In this document: one piece after another, positions 27,001-42,000 of the stretch | Layout of the letters: every line of letters starts with the position of its first letter | Position numbering within the stretch: position 1 is the stretch's first letter | Program-made: the position numbers | Source: Myxococcales bacterium | GTDB lineage: Bacteria; Desulfobacterota; Binatia; HRBIN30 | DNA: 64,000 bases | Reading direction: 5' to 3' | NCBI GenBank assembly: GCA_037445065.1 | Contig: JBBILD010000001.1 | Location: 195,753-259,752, forward strand

Positions 27001-30000
27001 CTGTCGGCGGTGGAGGGTCTGCAGGTCGCCACGCACACCTTCGAGCCCTACATCGTCCCGATTGCGGCCGCCATCTTGCTCGGCCTCTTTTCCGTTCAGC
27101 GCCACGGCACCGGAGGGTTGGGCGCCGTCTTTGGTCCCACGATGTTGGTTTGGTTCGTGACCATTGGGGTACTGGGTTTGTGGGGGGTGTACCGGCTGCC
27201 GCACGGTGAGGTCTCGGTGTGGCAAGCCCTCAACCCTTGGCATGCGTTCGAGTTCTTTTGGCGGAACGGTTTGCACGGGTTTTTGATCCTCGGCGCGGTG
27301 GTCTTGTGCGTTACGGGGAGCGAGGCGTTGTACGCGGACCTCGGTCACTTTGGCGCCCGCCCGATTCGCTTATCCTGGTACCTGGTGGTGTTTCCTTGCT
27401 TGCTTCTCAATTACTTCGGCCAGGGGGCATTGCTGCTTGCGCGCGGGAGTTCGGTCGTGAACCCGTTTTTCGAGTTGGCCCCGGCTTGGTTCCTTTACCC
27501 GTTGGTTGGCTTGGCGACCGTGGCGACGGTCATTGCTTCTCAGGCACTGATCTCTGGGGCGTTCTCCCTCACCCAGCAGGCTTCGCAGCTCGGGTATCTT
27601 CCGCGTTTCAATATTGTGCACACCTCGGAGGCGCAGGCTGGGCAGATTTACATCCCCGAGGTGAATGTTGCGTTGATGGTGATGTGCTTGCTGCTGGTGT
27701 TGGGCTTCCAGACCTCGAGCGCATTGGCCGGGGCATATGGGCTGGCGGTGACCGGGACCATGACCGCCACTTCCGTCCTCTTTTACGCCGTCTGCCGGGA
27801 ACACTGGGGCTGGTCCTTACCCGTAGCGGCTTCCGTAGTGGGTCTCTTCCTGTTGTTTGACGGATCCTACTTGGTCGCGAACGCGGTAAAGATCGCGGAC
27901 GGCGGCTGGGTCCCGATGGCGATCGGCGGGGTGGTCTTCACCATTTTGACGACTTGGAAGCGGGGTCGCGCTGAGGTGGCCGAAATGCTCGCTCGCGCTA
28001 GCCTGCCAGTGGAGGTCTTTCTGGCGGACGTGCAAAACCAGAAACCCGTGCGCGTCGAGGGCACGGCTGTGGTGATGACCTCGTCGCCCTCGGGTGTTCC
28101 GGCTGTGCTGCTGCATTATTTCAAACACACTCGGACCCTCCACAAGCGAGTCGTGCTGCTCTCCATTTTGAGCGAAAAGCGGCCGCTCGTGCCGGACAAA
28201 GAGAAAATCGTGGTGACGGAACTCGGCCAGGGGTTTTACCGTGTGGTTGCACACTTCGGGTTCATGGAGACGCCGCGGATTCGTGACGTGTTGCGTTTTT
28301 GCCAGGCGAAAGGACTCTCCTTCGACCTGATGGCGACCACTTTCTTCTTGGGCCGCGAAACGCTCCTCCCCACCGGACGGGCGCGGATGGCGGGCTGGCG
28401 AAAGCGGCTCTACATCCTGCTGGCCCGTAACGCGCCCTCAGCGGCTTCGTTCTTCGAGATCCCACCCAACCGCGTGGTCGAACTCGGAACGCAACTGGAG
28501 CTTTAGGCCAGTGCAGCCGGCAGCGGCAGAGTTCGCCGCTACCTTTTCTCAACTCAGAAAGTTCCAGCGGAACATGGTCCACATGTCCCGAGGGCTCTCG
28601 CCGAGCTTGCGCACGACCGAAGGTTCGAAACCGGAATGCATGAGGCAGTTTTGGCAGCGTGGGTCTTGCCGCTTTTCCCAGTAGTCCCAATCAACTCCCT
28701 GCCAGAATTCCTTCCACGTCGGGTAGTACTCTCCCGCGATCAGGTAGCACGGGCCCTTCCATCCTTTCGGCGTGCGCGTCGGGTTTCCCCACGGGGTGCA
28801 CGGATAGTCTCGTAAGCCGGCGGCGAACTGGAGGAACAGAGGCGTCGAGTACAGCCGATACTTCTGCGAGAGTTCCAAGACACGCCGGAACTTTTGGTGG
28901 ATTTCTTCTTTGTACAGGAAGTGGTCACCGCTCAGACTCTCATAGTGGTACCCGGGCGAGAGTAGGATGCCGTCCACCCCGATTTCCGTGAGAAGGGCGC
29001 ACATTTGCTCGATTTCGTCCATGTTTGTCTCGCGGTAGATGGTGGTATTCGTGCACACGCGATAGCCACGCTTCTTTCCCTCGCGAATCATGGCGATGGC
29101 CTTGTCGAACACACCCTTGCGGTTGACAACGAAGTCATGCGTGTCGCGGAGGCCGTCCAAATGCACGTTGATCGACAAGCGTTTGTGGGGTCGGCTGCGT
29201 TGGTAAAAGCGCTCGAGCAAGATGCCATTCGTGCACAAGTAAATGTGCCGTTTGCGTTCGATGATTCCTTGCACCAGTTCGGGCAGTTCGGGATAGATGG
29301 TCGGCTCGCCGCCGCAAATCGAGACCACAGGCGCGCCGCTTTCATCCACGGCACGTAGGCACTCTTCCAGGGGGAGTCGGTCCTTTAAGTCTCCGTTGTA
29401 CCGTTCCGGCGAGCAACCGATACAGGCAAGATTGCACGTGTGGAGAGGTTCGAGCATGAGTACGAAGGGGTAGCGCTTGTTCCCTCGCCACCAATTGCGA
29501 AGCTGCCATTTGATCATGTCCGTGGTGATGTGCAGGGGAAATCGCATCGTATCGCCCTCCTCAAAAAGTTCGTTCTTTCCGCTGCCGCTTGGGTTCGCCT
29601 TGTACCAAGTCGTGCCAGGCCGCGAAAAGACGATCGAGTCCCTCTTCTGCCTGCCGTTTGAGGCCGTTGAGTTTTCGCAATTCTCCAACCGGATTGTCTC
29701 GCTTCCACAAATAGCGGAGCAGAGCCAGCGGTCGGGGGTTGCCGCTCGCCGGGTCAATCAAGCTTTCTTCCGGCAAATCGCAGGTCACAGGATCCAAGAT
29801 TGCGCGCACGCAAGCGAAGGGGATCCGCCGCCGTTCGGCAGAGGCTGCGATTGCCGCGCTCTCCATGTCTACTGCTAGCGCCCCGAAATTCCGAGCGGCG
29901 TGCTCCTTCTCTGCAGCGGAGAGCAGCGGTCGTGGAGTGCTGACCACGGCTCCCTCGTGCACGGCCAGCTGCGCGCGGTTGGCTGCTGCAAGCAAGCGCT

Positions 30001-39000: not shown

Positions 39001-42000
39001 CGCAGTCGCCTCCACCAGCCCCGGACCATTTTGCAGGCAGGCCCAAATCCCGCGCGATCGCGATCGCTTCTTCGATCTCGTGGCGAAAGACCGCAAACCC
39101 AGTACGCTGGGCAAAGTGGCGTAAAGCGTGCGTGGCGCAGCCCACCGGGTGGTGCAGGCTCCTTCCATGCTCGAGGGCGTATGCGAGGTCCCGAACCGCG
39201 CTGGCCGAATAATCGAGAAAACAGGCGTGGGCGGGTGGACAAACACGGCTGGCTAGGCGGTAACGAAGAATCCAATCGGTGGTGTCCGCAGGAACGCCGG
39301 TCCATGCCACCACAAGGGTGGGCCACGTGACCGGATGTACCGGACGGATCACGGGCTCGTCGGGAGTTTCCAGTTCGTACCAAAGGATCCCGCCGTACAC
39401 GCTGGCGGCCACGTCGGCGCCGCTGCCTGCCCCCCCCTGCGCCATTCGATGAGCCGAGAGTGCCCACTGGAAAACTGTTGGCCGTGCTTGTTCGAGGGCA
39501 ACACTCGGATGGCACAGTGAATACAGACCAGCCGTCACCGCGGCGCAAAAAGCCGCGCTCAACCCCAAGCCAAGTTTTTCTCCGATGCGCGGGCAGCGCG
39601 CTTGCGCAACAATCCGCAGGCCTGGCAAGATTTTCCGCGCTTGCTCGGTGGGAATCTGCCTCAGGCTGGCCAGCACAAAGCGGAGCGGTCCGGCTGGCTC
39701 CGGAAGTGCGGTAGGGCACAGCTCGAGGCGTTCTCCGATCTGAGGAGCGATCAAATGAAGACCGGCGATCCCGTTGGGCCGCTCGAAGCGAACCTCGACG
39801 CCTGGCGAGACCGCCGCGACTGCCGCCGGTGCCCCATCGAGCACGGCATACTCCCCGAGCAAGAACAGCTTACCGGGCGCAGTAACGGTCAACTGTGGTT
39901 TCATGGACAAACCTCCCTCACCTGCACCCCTGGACCTGGCTCAGCGACGAGTACGCTCAGGCTCCCGATCTCGCTTAGGGCAACGATCACCCGCTCTTGG
40001 TCTGGAGGCTGGCAGAGGACTTTGACTTGTGGGCCGGCATCAATCGAGCAGTACGCTGCTACCCCACTTCGCCGCAGGTCCTGCACCCGCTGCAGCACAG
40101 CCACCGTTGCAGGCTCCCAGTACAGAAGGGCAGGCCGTGCTGCCATCATCAGCGCGTGCATCTTTAGAGCGCTGTGTTCGGCAATTTCTCCGAGACCGTG
40201 AAAGTCTCTTCGTAGAATTGCTTGACGAGCGAGGGTCAGATCGGCCTCCTGTTCTTTTTGCCATGCGGTAAAAAAGAGAGAGTGCTGTGTGAGCCGCATG
40301 CCATCGCTCGAACTCACGCGTTTCGGCTGTGAGTTGGTGACCGCAATGACCACCGAAAGCCGCCAGTGATCACTGGGGGCGATGGGTACGGCAACCGAGT
40401 CTTCTCCATCGGGACGCTCACCAGCGATCCACTCGACAAATCCTCCAAAAATGGAACGAGCGGCCGAGCCCGACCCACGCCGTGCGACCGCGGAAAGCCG
40501 GGTGGGGTCTAAGCCCAGCCCCAGGAACTTGTTCAGTGCGGCGGCCAGCGCCGCAAACGTGGAAGCCGACGAGGCGAGTCCCGCAGCAACCGGGAAATTG
40601 GTGTGAACTTCAACGGACAGTCTCACCTCCGTCCCGGCAATCGAGCGGGCGAAATCCAGAAACCGAACCAACTTTTTCTTAGCCGGCTGGGGTACTGGGG
40701 ATCCGTTCACCAGGATCTGGTCGCATTGGCTTTGCGTAACGCGGACCTCAGTTGCGAGCGGTGCGAGGGTGAGGGAGATGCTACCGACGGCCGGAAGATT
40801 GTGCTCCTCGTCCCGCTTGCCCCAATACTTTACTAGGGCAAGGTTGGCGTGCGCTTTGGCCCAAACGGCCTTTGCGACCGGCCCGTCCTGACCGATTGGA
40901 CTAAACCTGTCGGTTAGGATCCTGTTGCGCAACACCTTATCTGAGCAAACCATATTTTTTGCTGTTTTGTCGCGACCAACGCCACCGGTTCCCGAGCGGA
41001 AGGTTTGGCTGGCCGAGCAATCTAAACCAAGCGGTCAGTATGTATACGCGGTAGTTCTGACTCGGTCAAGAAGGCAGCACGATGAGGGAGCGCCAACCCC
41101 TCAGCGAATCGTTAGTTGATAGGGGAGGATCGCCCAAGCGTGAGGCCTTTCCAGGAGATCCAGGAGCGCGCGGGGAGGAACGGGCACTGGTTGTCTGCGA
41201 CGGACAGGGCGAAGCAGCATCTCGATCAAGCTGCGCGGGCGCGGAAACGGGACGACCGGGATCGGGTCATCAGGGTCAAAGCCCGCCAACTGTTTCGCTT
41301 CTCGGATTGCATCTTCGAGCCCACCCAGTTGGTCAACGAGCCCCATCTGCAGGGCTCGCTCGCCGGTCCACACCCGCCCGTTCGCGATCCTTTCGATCTT
41401 CTCTGGGCAGATGTGCCGTGCGTGCGCAACGAGTTCCTTGAAGCGCCGGTGAAATTCTTCGGCATGGCGCTGCAGGATGGCCGCCTCTTCTTCTGACAGT
41501 TCGGCATAATCCGAATGCAAGGCGGTGTGGGCTCCTCGTTCCACTCGGTCTTTGTCGATGCCAAGGTGGTCGTAAAGGCGGCGCAGGCGAAAACGGCCAC
41601 TCAGGACTCCAATGGACCCGGTAAGAGTCACGGCTTCGGCAACGACCAGCCAGCCGCCGAGTGCGAGGTAGTAACCGCCCGAGGCGGCGACGCTTCCTAA
41701 GGAGACGACCACCGGCTTGGCCTGGGCAAGCCGTTCGACTTCGTGCCAGAGCAGATCGGAGGCGACCGCCGAACCTCCCGGGCTATCAATGCGGATCACC
41801 ACGGCTTTCACGCCAGCCTCCTCCACGAGCTGGCGCAGGCAACGTTGGAACTCCGCGAAGCGGCCCGCTGCGCCCGGGAACAGCTTCCCATAGCCGTCCG
41901 GCATGATTGGGCCGCTTGCGTAGAGGAGCGCGACGCACCGTTTGCGGAAGCGCTTGCTCAGCCGTTTCAGTTCTCGTTGACGCCGCCGAACATACGTTGG

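What a model noticed while it worked through the whole genome (the two positions that open the first line are those of the whole stretch)
28549..40953. Mevalonate-hopanoid operon without HMG-CoA synthase, in an order that also lacks HMG-CoA lyase
Five mevalonate genes (mvaD, phosphomevalonate kinase, fni, HMG-CoA reductase, mvk) run into shc-hpnCD-hpnE-hpnG-hpnH as one operon, but the genome has neither HMG-CoA synthase nor HMG-CoA lyase. HMG-CoA must come by another route, most simply 3-methylcrotonyl-CoA carboxylation (leucine or isoprenoid catabolism), with the reductase as its exit.
Evidence so far: Operon read from tables. HMG-CoA reductase in 24 of 52 genomes of the order, HMG-CoA synthase in 5 of 52, all among the 24; in G218 the synthase sits between hpnCD and shc, a slot that is empty here and in G023; it finds nothing here by tblastn. 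The archaeal-HMGS-like DUF35 fusion g01984 lacks the catalytic Cys in the alignment with 6ESQ; its paralogue g00882 shows the same by eye. HMG-CoA lyase in 1 of 52. MCC beta orthologue g02753 (66% to MCCC2/AccD1) in 40 of 52.
(Added by a program. Inside this text positions count along the whole contig: contig position 195,753 is position 1 of the stretch shown here. "Call 12" and the like, gene names such as g00115 and contig names such as C1 are that model's own, and its searches are not shown. The text may have been shortened before it was handed on; [...] marks where a part breaks off. The agent that wrote the report below was given it as the finding of a first reader that could run no searches.)

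Follow-up and report, generated by a model that had tools for sequence, protein, structure and literature searches.

The report
Mevalonate pathway without HMG-CoA synthase
An uncultured bacterium and its relatives carry the genes that turn HMG-CoA into isoprenoid building blocks and hopanoid lipids but have lost the enzyme that normally makes HMG-CoA; some relatives have also lost the other known isoprenoid route, so they probably make these essential molecules from the leucine breakdown pathway.

Summary
The ten-gene operon is real, and this Binatia genome (97.7% complete) has no HMG-CoA synthase (HMGS) or LiuE-type lyase. HMGS sits between shc and hpnC in other Binatia and was cleanly excised here. 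New evidence: three relatives (G027, G028, G044; 97-100% complete) keep the operon but lack HMGS and dxr, ispF, ispG and ispH, so the HMGS-less pathway is their only visible isoprenoid route. G000 itself lacks dxs. The reductase has an NADPH-like cofactor helix. All three keep leuC, isovaleryl-CoA dehydrogenase, methylcrotonyl-CoA carboxylase and a LiuC/AtuE-type hydratase, while the HMGS-bearing genus lacks the dehydrogenase (0 of 5). Best reading (0.6, inferred): leucine or isovaleryl-CoA feeds HMG-CoA. Against it: these genes are as common in genomes without the operon, and G000 has lost the carboxylase's own alpha subunit. The reductase is not the needed exit: AtuA (47 of 52) has the fold of an ATP-binding citramalate lyase and is the likelier lyase, and a rival synthase. 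The scan noted the operon earlier on other DNA (e1-1436958). New variant of a known kind.

The parts
39901..40953 (-). mvaD, diphosphomevalonate decarboxylase
   Evidence: TIGR01240 257 bits, cut-off 171; below cut-off of the phosphomevalonate decarboxylase model
38879..39910 (-). pmk, phosphomevalonate kinase (by best family and position)
   Evidence: GHMP domains; best TIGR01220 109 bits, below cut-off 165.7
37804..38898 (-). fni, type 2 IPP isomerase
   Evidence: TIGR02151 382 bits
36492..37787 (-). class II HMG-CoA reductase with NADPH-like cofactor helix
   Evidence: TIGR00532 427 bits; helix aligns with the NADPH enzyme 5WPJ and lacks the Asp of 1QAX/6DIO; likely start at 37787
35536..36480 (-). 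mvk, mevalonate kinase (start estimated)
   Evidence: TIGR00549 250 bits from residue 136 of the long frame
33491..35539 (-). shc, squalene-hopene cyclase
   Evidence: TIGR01507 806 bits
33488..33490 (.). empty HMG-CoA synthase slot between shc and hpnC, no remnant
   Evidence: 3 bases here; at most 140 in 14 HMGS-less relatives against 1280-1298 in 4 with HMGS; filled in other Binatia
31715..33487 (-). fused hpnC-hpnD (squalene synthesis)
   Evidence: TIGR03464 on residues 19-281 and TIGR03465 on 316-579
30331..31692 (-). hpnE, hydroxysqualene dehydroxylase
   Evidence: TIGR03467 391 bits
29561..30334 (-). hpnG-like nucleosidase
   Evidence: best TIGR03468 127 bits, below cut-off 187; position between hpnE and hpnH
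28549..29547 (-). hpnH, adenosyl-hopene radical SAM transferase (start estimated)
   Evidence: TIGR03470 389 bits from residue 71 of the long frame

Best explanation
The operon is an old Binatia unit that makes IPP/DMAPP by the mevalonate route and hands it to hopanoid synthesis. HMG-CoA synthase was deleted from it, once on the branch leading to this genome and up to three more times in the order. HMG-CoA now most likely comes from the leucine (liu) route: 2-oxoisocaproate, made by the cell or taken from leucine, becomes isovaleryl-CoA, then 3-methylcrotonyl-CoA (also the end product of acyclic terpene breakdown), methylglutaconyl-CoA and (S)-HMG-CoA, which an NADPH-type reductase draws into mevalonate. 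In G027, G028 and G044 this would be the only isoprenoid route. In G000 the MCC beta subunit must borrow the AtuF-like alpha subunit, or the Atu-like carboxylase does the step. Shown: gene content, gene order, motifs, losses. Inferred: flux, direction, the 2-oxoacid step, subunit sharing.
For: (1) Need: dxr, ispG and ispH are all missing in 6 of 52 genomes and all 6 carry HMGR; three of them (G027 100%, G028 97%, G044 99% complete) have no HMGS, no ispF and no KAS-III-like protein with an HMGS active site. On the operon tree MEP was lost twice inside the HMGS-less clade. G000 has dxr, ispD, E, F, G, H but no dxs. (2) Direction: catalytic motifs kept and helix H-P-N-M-x-K/R-R in 20 of the 21 order reductases aligned (one not parsed), close to the NADPH motif and unlike the NADH motif of PMC13488460. 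(3) Supply: the three have leuC, IVD, MCC beta followed by biotin carboxylase (BCCP seen in G027 and G044; G028's contig ends), and the hydratase. MCC beta carries 11-12 of 15 residues of the MCC-specific motif and its best PDB matches are MCC beta chains. Of 17 operon genomes without HMGS, 16 have IVD and 16 MCC beta. (4) Complement: genus g12, which kept HMGS, has the IVD orthologue in 0 of 5 and the MCC beta orthologue in 1 of 5; G042 lacks both beta subunits, the hydratase and AtuA. (5) ilvD is next to IVD in G000 and G035, and a 2-oxoacid:ferredoxin oxidoreductase is next to IVD in G027. (6) Precedent: leucine to sterol through IVD in Trypanosoma brucei (PMC5993337).
Against: IVD, MCC beta and AtuA are about as common without the operon (24, 24 and 26 of 28), so their presence is not specific. 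The complement rests on one genus; G049 has HMGS and the whole liu set, and G039 has a separate CitE-ACAD-beta-alpha cluster. G031 lacks IVD and G037 MCC beta. G000, G034, G035 and G036 lack the MCC alpha orthologue; in M. smegmatis the paralogous AccD2-AccA2 did not rescue growth on isovalerate (PMC4347857). G000 has no BCKDH/PDH-type E1 alpha, and the specificity of its three 2-oxoacid oxidoreductases is unresolved. The only LiuC-like hydratase lies in the Atu-like cluster, not beside MCC. The helix has Asn where the NADPH motif has Ser. All genomes are assemblies of uncultured cells with 2-7% contamination; no expression or chemistry.
Confidence: 0.6

Rival explanations
1. AtuA is a reversible, ATP-linked C-C lyase that replaces HMG-CoA synthase: acetoacetyl-CoA plus an activated acetate (acetyl phosphate) and ADP give HMG-CoA and ATP.
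For: The AtuA model (pLDDT 83) matches citramalate lyase CmlA: Foldseek E 5e-19 to 9EVF (ADP-pyruvate complex), Z 29 over 403 residues to 9ERQ (AMPPNP-citramalate complex). AtuA is described as the lyase that removes acetate from an HMG-CoA analogue (PMC4847356). Present in G000, G027, G028, G044; absent in HMGS-bearing G039 and G042. G000 has acetate kinase.
Against: Only 15-16% identity to CmlA; the reaction is inferred from PDB titles, the paper was not read. AtuA sits beside carboxylases with Gly in the specificity motif, i.e. geranyl-type by recalled knowledge, never in the mevalonate operon. It is in 26 of 28 genomes without HMGR. Low acetoacetyl-CoA pools disfavour synthesis (general knowledge).
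Confidence: 0.12
2. The cells salvage mevalonate, HMG or other C5/C6 precursors from the environment; the reductase is incidental or oxidative.
For: NCBIfam names the reductase family 'degradative' and its closest PDB sequences are NADH-type enzymes. Most genomes with the operon still have MEP genes. Auxotrophy is the usual reading of incomplete pathways (PMC13001223).
Against: The cofactor helix lacks the NADH-type Asp. The reductase is more conserved (66-86% to G000) than mvk (38-50%). Catabolic reductases in the HMGR hit list lie near LiuE, which is absent here. No transporter is a conserved part of the operon. The MEP-less genomes are 5.3-7.0 Mb, not reduced.
Confidence: 0.1
3. An unrecognised synthase makes HMG-CoA from acetyl-CoA, for example the Cys-less HMGS-like/DUF35 fusion with its PRK06157 thiolase partner acting as an aldolase, or the CitE-family Mcl-like enzyme.
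For: Fusion-type proteins occur in G000 (3), G027, G028 and G044; in G000 each lies beside a PRK06157 thiolase. A CitE-family protein is in 49 of 52 genomes.
Against: Glu, Cys and His positions are all replaced. Such fusions also occur in HMGS-bearing G042. The G000 C8 pair is followed by a P450. CitE-type lyases act on (R)-HMG-CoA, not the reductase's substrate (recalled). No extra gene is conserved in the operon.
Confidence: 0.1
4. The absences are assembly gaps, or MEP supplies the isoprenoids and the HMGS-less operon is decaying.
For: All are metagenome-type assemblies; G036 lacks ispG and ispH but has dxr, G008 and G013 lack dxr only.
Against: The HMGS slot is seen empty in mid-contig in 15 genomes (and the window). 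Four MEP genes that lie at separate places in G000 are missing together in three genomes. No stops inside any HMGR match.
Confidence: 0.08

Closest known systems
Bacterial mevalonate pathway, DPMD route (mvaS, mvaA, mvk, pmk, mvaD, fni), as surveyed in PMC6107057 and PMC13001223
   Same: Class II reductase, MVK, PMK, diphosphomevalonate decarboxylase and type 2 isomerase in one operon.
   Different: No HMG-CoA synthase anywhere in the genome; joined to shc-hpnCDEGH; in three relatives no MEP pathway either.
Leucine-to-sterol route of trypanosomatids (BCAT, BCKDH, IVDH, MCC, MGH, HMGR; PMC5993337)
   Same: HMG-CoA made from leucine through isovaleryl-CoA and drawn off by HMGR.
   Different: T. 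brucei keeps HMGS and uses leucine as one of several sources; here HMGS is gone, the product is a hopanoid, and G000 has no BCKDH-type E1 alpha.
Legionella mevalonate genes (PMC13001223, section 18)
   Same: Most species lack HmgS; the review leaves the compensation open.
   Different: They also lack PmvK and live in hosts; these Binatia keep all later enzymes, have large genomes, and HMGS-bearing sister lineages mark the losses.
Liu and Atu pathways of Pseudomonas/Thauera and mycobacterial AccD1-AccA1 / AccD2-AccA2 (PMC4847356, PMC4347857)
   Same: IVD, MCC beta with the MCC motif, an ACAD-beta-alpha-hydratase(-AtuA) cluster.
   Different: No LiuE in 51 of 52 genomes; hydratase not beside MCC; MCC alpha lost in G000 and three g10 genomes tested.
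Myxococcus xanthus AIB pathway (MvaS, LiuC, AibAB, AibC; PMC5389471)
   Same: Links HMG-CoA, methylglutaconyl-CoA and isovaleryl-CoA at a branch with mevalonate synthesis.
   Different: Runs from HMG-CoA to isovaleryl-CoA and needs MvaS; the route proposed here runs the other way without it.

Membership tests
Canonical bacterial mevalonate pathway | HMG-CoA synthase with Glu/Cys/His triad | tested here: not met
Canonical bacterial mevalonate pathway | HMGR with catalytic motifs | tested here: met
Canonical bacterial mevalonate pathway | MVK, PMK, DPMD, IDI | tested here: met
   PMK below its family cut-off, assigned by best family and position
NADPH-type (biosynthetic) class II HMGR | Cofactor helix (H/Y)xSxxxR rather than Dx(V/L)xxxL | tested here: inconclusive
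   H and R present, Asn in place of Ser, no Asp (rule from PMC13488460)
Hopanoid (hpn) cluster | shc with hpnC, hpnD, hpnE, hpnH | tested here: met
   All above NCBIfam cut-offs
Liu leucine/isovalerate pathway | Isovaleryl-CoA dehydrogenase | tested here: met
   Top five PDB matches are IVDs; 43 of 52 genomes
Liu leucine/isovalerate pathway | MCC beta with the MCC-specific motif | tested here: met
   12 of 15 residues, three Phe kept
Liu leucine/isovalerate pathway | Cognate MCC alpha (BC and BCCP) | tested here: not met
   Not found in G000, G034, G035, G036; present in G027, G044 and most others examined
Liu leucine/isovalerate pathway | Methylglutaconyl-CoA hydratase LiuC | tested here: inconclusive
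   Best match of 35 LiuC references at 34-45% is the hydratase of the Atu-like cluster (references were picked by likeness to it)
Liu leucine/isovalerate pathway | HMG-CoA lyase LiuE | tested here: not met
MEP pathway (G000) | Dxr, IspD, IspE, IspF, IspG, IspH | tested here: met
MEP pathway (G000) | Dxs | tested here: not met
   E. coli Dxs and a 41-sequence profile find only a transketolase-like 23% match; xseB-ispA-tlyA with no dxs in mid-contig
Leucine-fed mevalonate route | Leucine carbon incorporated intact into isoprenoids | not testable with these tools
   Needs isotope labelling

The most novel reading that the evidence does not exclude
These Binatia run a de novo isoprenoid pathway in which HMG-CoA synthase is replaced by an unrelated enzyme: AtuA, a member of the nucleotide-binding citramalate lyase fold, works both ways on HMG-CoA, as the order's missing lyase and, where HMGS and MEP are gone, as an ATP-coupled synthase. 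(The milder novel reading, a leucine-fed mevalonate pathway as a bacterium's sole isoprenoid source, is my best explanation at about 0.6 and would deserve about 0.75.)
Probability: 0.12. Interest if true: 0.9.

Novelty: new variant of a known kind. Interest (0 to 1): 0.7.

Why it matters
Isoprenoids are essential, and genome surveys score bacteria without HMGS and without MEP as auxotrophs or as unexplained; a 2026 review names the HmgS-less Legionella as an open question (PMC13001223). Here large-genome bacteria lost HMGS cleanly and then lost MEP twice, with HMGS-bearing sisters as controls, so the question becomes testable with a defined gene set. If leucine is the source, hopanoids of these organisms would carry leucine-derived carbon, which bears on lipid biomarker isotopes, and pathway-scoring rules need a third entry. 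It also points to AtuA as a candidate non-homologous HMG-CoA lyase.

Tried and rejected
Cryptic HMGS among KAS-III-like proteins: 30 of 31 matches in five genomes aligned; those with Cys are FabH-, PKS- or thiolase-like at 31% identity or less to a real HMGS, the fusions have no Cys. My first idea that AtuA simply fills the LiuE slot of a liuB-liuC operon was weakened: the beta subunits beside it (G001, G002, G003, G010, G011, and the G049 copy beside the same hydratase) carry Gly at the middle Phe. A conserved extra gene in or beside the operon: none in 20 relatives. Promoter/terminator scan: no promoter-like site, terminators at chance level. Expression: no RNA holder listed. ESM Atlas returned only AtuA clusters. 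Whether dxs is missing across the order could not be tested: the usual slot after ispA is empty in G034-G038 tested (G034, G035, G036, G037, G038), G045 and two further Binatia loci, against dxs within 4 kb in 42 of 80 ispA loci overall, but only G000 was searched whole. No complex prediction was run, as an MCC beta/alpha pair would pass by likeness to solved structures. Literature searches for a published account found none in this library; Table S1 of PMC13001223 has no 'Binat' entry. The library lacks most subscription papers; the Binatota genome paper (recalled) and the CmlA paper were not seen. PMC4321843 was an unrelated paper.

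
Full report
Observation. The window is G000:C1:195753-259752; G000 is 97.7% complete. Ten minus-strand genes run from 40953 to 28549 with overlaps or short gaps: mvaD, pmk, fni, class II hmgR, mvk, shc, fused hpnC-hpnD, hpnE, hpnG, hpnH. Eight pass their NCBIfam cut-offs; pmk and hpnG do not and are assigned by best family and position. GC is like the rest of the window. HMG-CoA synthase is not found by PF01154 or by tblastn and a profile from five relatives' synthases. No LiuE-type lyase is found.

HMGS was lost, not never there. In G040, G042, G043 and G049 the synthase lies between shc and hpnC. 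A search with that synthase returned 31 loci; in 21 of them shc and hpnC flank it, and L376, L377, L379 and L388 outside the three own-order hits show the whole order mvaD-pmk-fni-hmgR-mvk-shc-HMGS-hpnC (this search can only find loci that have HMGS). The shc-hpnC gap is 140 bases or less in 14 HMGS-less relatives and 1280-1298 in the four with it. On a tree of six operon proteins (35 taxa; G032 and G050 dropped for lack of shc, G033 and G039 not fetched; SH-aLRT support), the order's operons nest among HMGS-bearing ones (92.8), and G000, g10, G026, G038, G044, G045, G027, G028 and G031 form one HMGS-less clade (99.6); G002, G047 and G048 add up to three more losses. G050's contig ends in hmgR and G019 has a fragment, so both are left out of later counts.

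The pathway is needed without HMGS. dxr, ispG (G043 has only a 30-position match below cut-off) and ispH are all missing in six genomes, G027, G028, G039, G042, G043 and G044, and all six carry HMGR (kin are not independent). Three have HMGS. G027, G028 and G044 (100, 97, 99% complete; 5-6% contamination) do not and also lack ispF. Their KAS-III-like proteins are FabH- or PKS-like or Cys-less fusions. G045, which keeps dxr, ispG and ispH, is sister to G027+G028 (99.8) and G044 lies apart, so MEP was lost twice after HMGS (an operon tree, not a species tree). G000 has dxr, ispD, ispE, ispF, ispG and ispH but no dxs: E. coli Dxs and a profile of 41 Dxs sequences find only a transketolase-like protein, and xseB-ispA runs straight into tlyA. 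The same slot is empty in G034-G038 as tested and G045; whether they have dxs elsewhere is untested, so G000 may have another DXP source or may itself depend on this operon.

Direction. NCBIfam labels the family 'degradative' and the closest PDB sequences are NADH enzymes, but at the cofactor helix G000 reads like S. pneumoniae 5WPJ and lacks the Asp of 1QAX and 6DIO. The helix is the same in 20 of 21 order sequences and in HMGS-bearing outgroups where parsed. PMC13488460 (passages) gives (H/Y)xSxxxR for NADPH and Dx(V/L)xxxL for NADH; these match the first but for Asn at the Ser position.

Source of HMG-CoA. G000 has an isovaleryl-CoA dehydrogenase (C6:114190; best PDB matches IVD) beside ilvD; an MCC beta subunit (C21:33896) with 12 of 15 residues of the motif that PMC4347857 (passages) gives as MCC-specific, whose homologues elsewhere lie in liuB-liuC-liuD-liuE operons; and an ACAD-beta-alpha-hydratase cluster (C10:81449-87036) that in relatives ends in AtuA. 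G027, G028 and G044 have leuC (partial in G028), IVD (partial in G028), MCC beta with biotin carboxylase, the hydratase and AtuA; in G027 a 2-oxoacid:ferredoxin oxidoreductase operon precedes IVD. Of 17 operon genomes without HMGS, 16 have IVD and 16 MCC beta. Genus g12, with HMGS in 4 of 5, has the IVD orthologue in 0 of 5 and MCC beta in 1 of 5, and G042 has lost both beta subunits, the hydratase and AtuA. By established chemistry a crotonase-type hydratase gives (S)-HMG-CoA, the CO2 added by MCC is released again by MvaD, and all five IPP carbons would come from leucine C2 onward.

Results against this reading. The same genes are in 24, 24 and 26 (IVD, MCC beta, AtuA) of 28 genomes without HMGR, so presence alone says little. 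The complement is one genus; G049 has both systems; G039 has another liu-like cluster with CitE. G031 lacks IVD and G037 MCC beta. In G000, G034, G035 and G036 the MCC alpha orthologue is not found, only the 53-55% AtuF-like protein, though MCC beta stays under purifying selection (G000 vs G034: 85% identity, pN 0.097, pS 0.69). In M. smegmatis the AccD2-AccA2 paralogue did not rescue growth on isovalerate. G000 has no BCKDH/PDH-type E1 alpha and its three 2-oxoacid oxidoreductases are not assigned.

The exit. AtuA is in 47 of 52 and is described as the lyase that removes acetate from 3-hydroxy-3-isohexenylglutaryl-CoA (PMC4847356, passages), of which HMG-CoA is the short homologue. Its model matches citramalate lyase CmlA, solved with AMPPNP-citramalate and ADP-pyruvate. 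I infer an ATP-dependent C-C lyase; I saw only the PDB titles. The carboxylases beside AtuA have Gly at the middle Phe of the motif, so its main substrate is probably larger than HMG-CoA. It remains the likeliest lyase and, if reversible, a rival synthase.

Comparison. The lower pathway and hpn genes are ordinary members of their families; the system fails the HMGS criterion of the canonical mevalonate pathway and the LiuE criterion of the liu pathway, and works like the leucine-to-sterol route of T. brucei (PMC5993337, passages), which however keeps HMGS. PMC13001223 (passages, section 18 and Table S1 searched) reports most Legionella without HmgS as unexplained and does not list Binatia under the terms searched. 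PMC6107057 (abstract and passages) has no occurrence of 'leucine'. PMC5389471 (passages) describes the opposite flux in M. xanthus. Nine searches found no account of this case; the library lacks most subscription papers, and supplements of the other papers were not read. The scan noted the operon layout before in another Binatia genome (e1-1436958), not the double loss.

Verdict. Observation confirmed; interpretation partly supported. New variant of a known kind; leucine/isovaleryl-CoA feeding 0.6, AtuA as synthase 0.12, salvage 0.1, other hidden synthase 0.1, assembly or decay 0.08. Interest 0.7.

Noticed in passing
G000:C3:52539-55774 (outside the window); L415-L418, L421, L424: xseA-xseB-ispA-tlyA without dxs; no dxs in the whole of G000 although dxr and ispD-H are present.
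   Followed up: partly
G000:C21:33896-35509 (L091); G034, G035, G036: MCC beta kept at 85% identity while its biotin carboxylase and carrier genes are gone; only an AtuF-like alpha remains.
   Followed up: partly
G000:C2:55783-57555 (L306): AtuA has the fold of the nucleotide-binding citramalate lyase CmlA (9ERQ, 9EVF), Z 29 over 403 residues.
   Followed up: partly
L361, L362, L363, L364, L370, L371, L372, L381: Other Binatia-like loci read hmgR-shc-HMGS-hpnCD with no mvaD, pmk, fni or mvk in about 5.5 kb upstream; L365-L369 start at shc-HMGS. The mirror image of this finding: upper pathway kept, lower part not adjacent.
   Followed up: no
   Followed up: no
G000:C8:153515-156112, C4:221048-224048, C11:64767-67442: Three Cys-less HMGS-like/DUF35 fusions, each beside a PRK06157 thiolase; function unassigned, PhlA/PhlB/PhlC-like anatomy.
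   Followed up: partly
L307-L312 (G001, G002, G003, G010, G011, G049): Beta subunits 70-74% identical to MCC beta but with Gly at the middle Phe of the specificity motif, beside a hydratase and (except G049) AtuA.
   Followed up: partly
G000 whole genome: No PDH/BCKDH E1 alpha, only the 2-oxoglutarate dehydrogenase E1, yet a lone PDH-like E2 at C9:126308.
   Followed up: no
window 41101-46537: sppA and an Rrf2-hscA-hscB block lie upstream on the same strand; sppA precedes mvaD in several relatives.
   Followed up: no
window 21261-26308: A cytochrome P450 and a 978-aa protein with myxobacterial cysteine-rich repeats lie beyond the kup gene.
   Followed up: no
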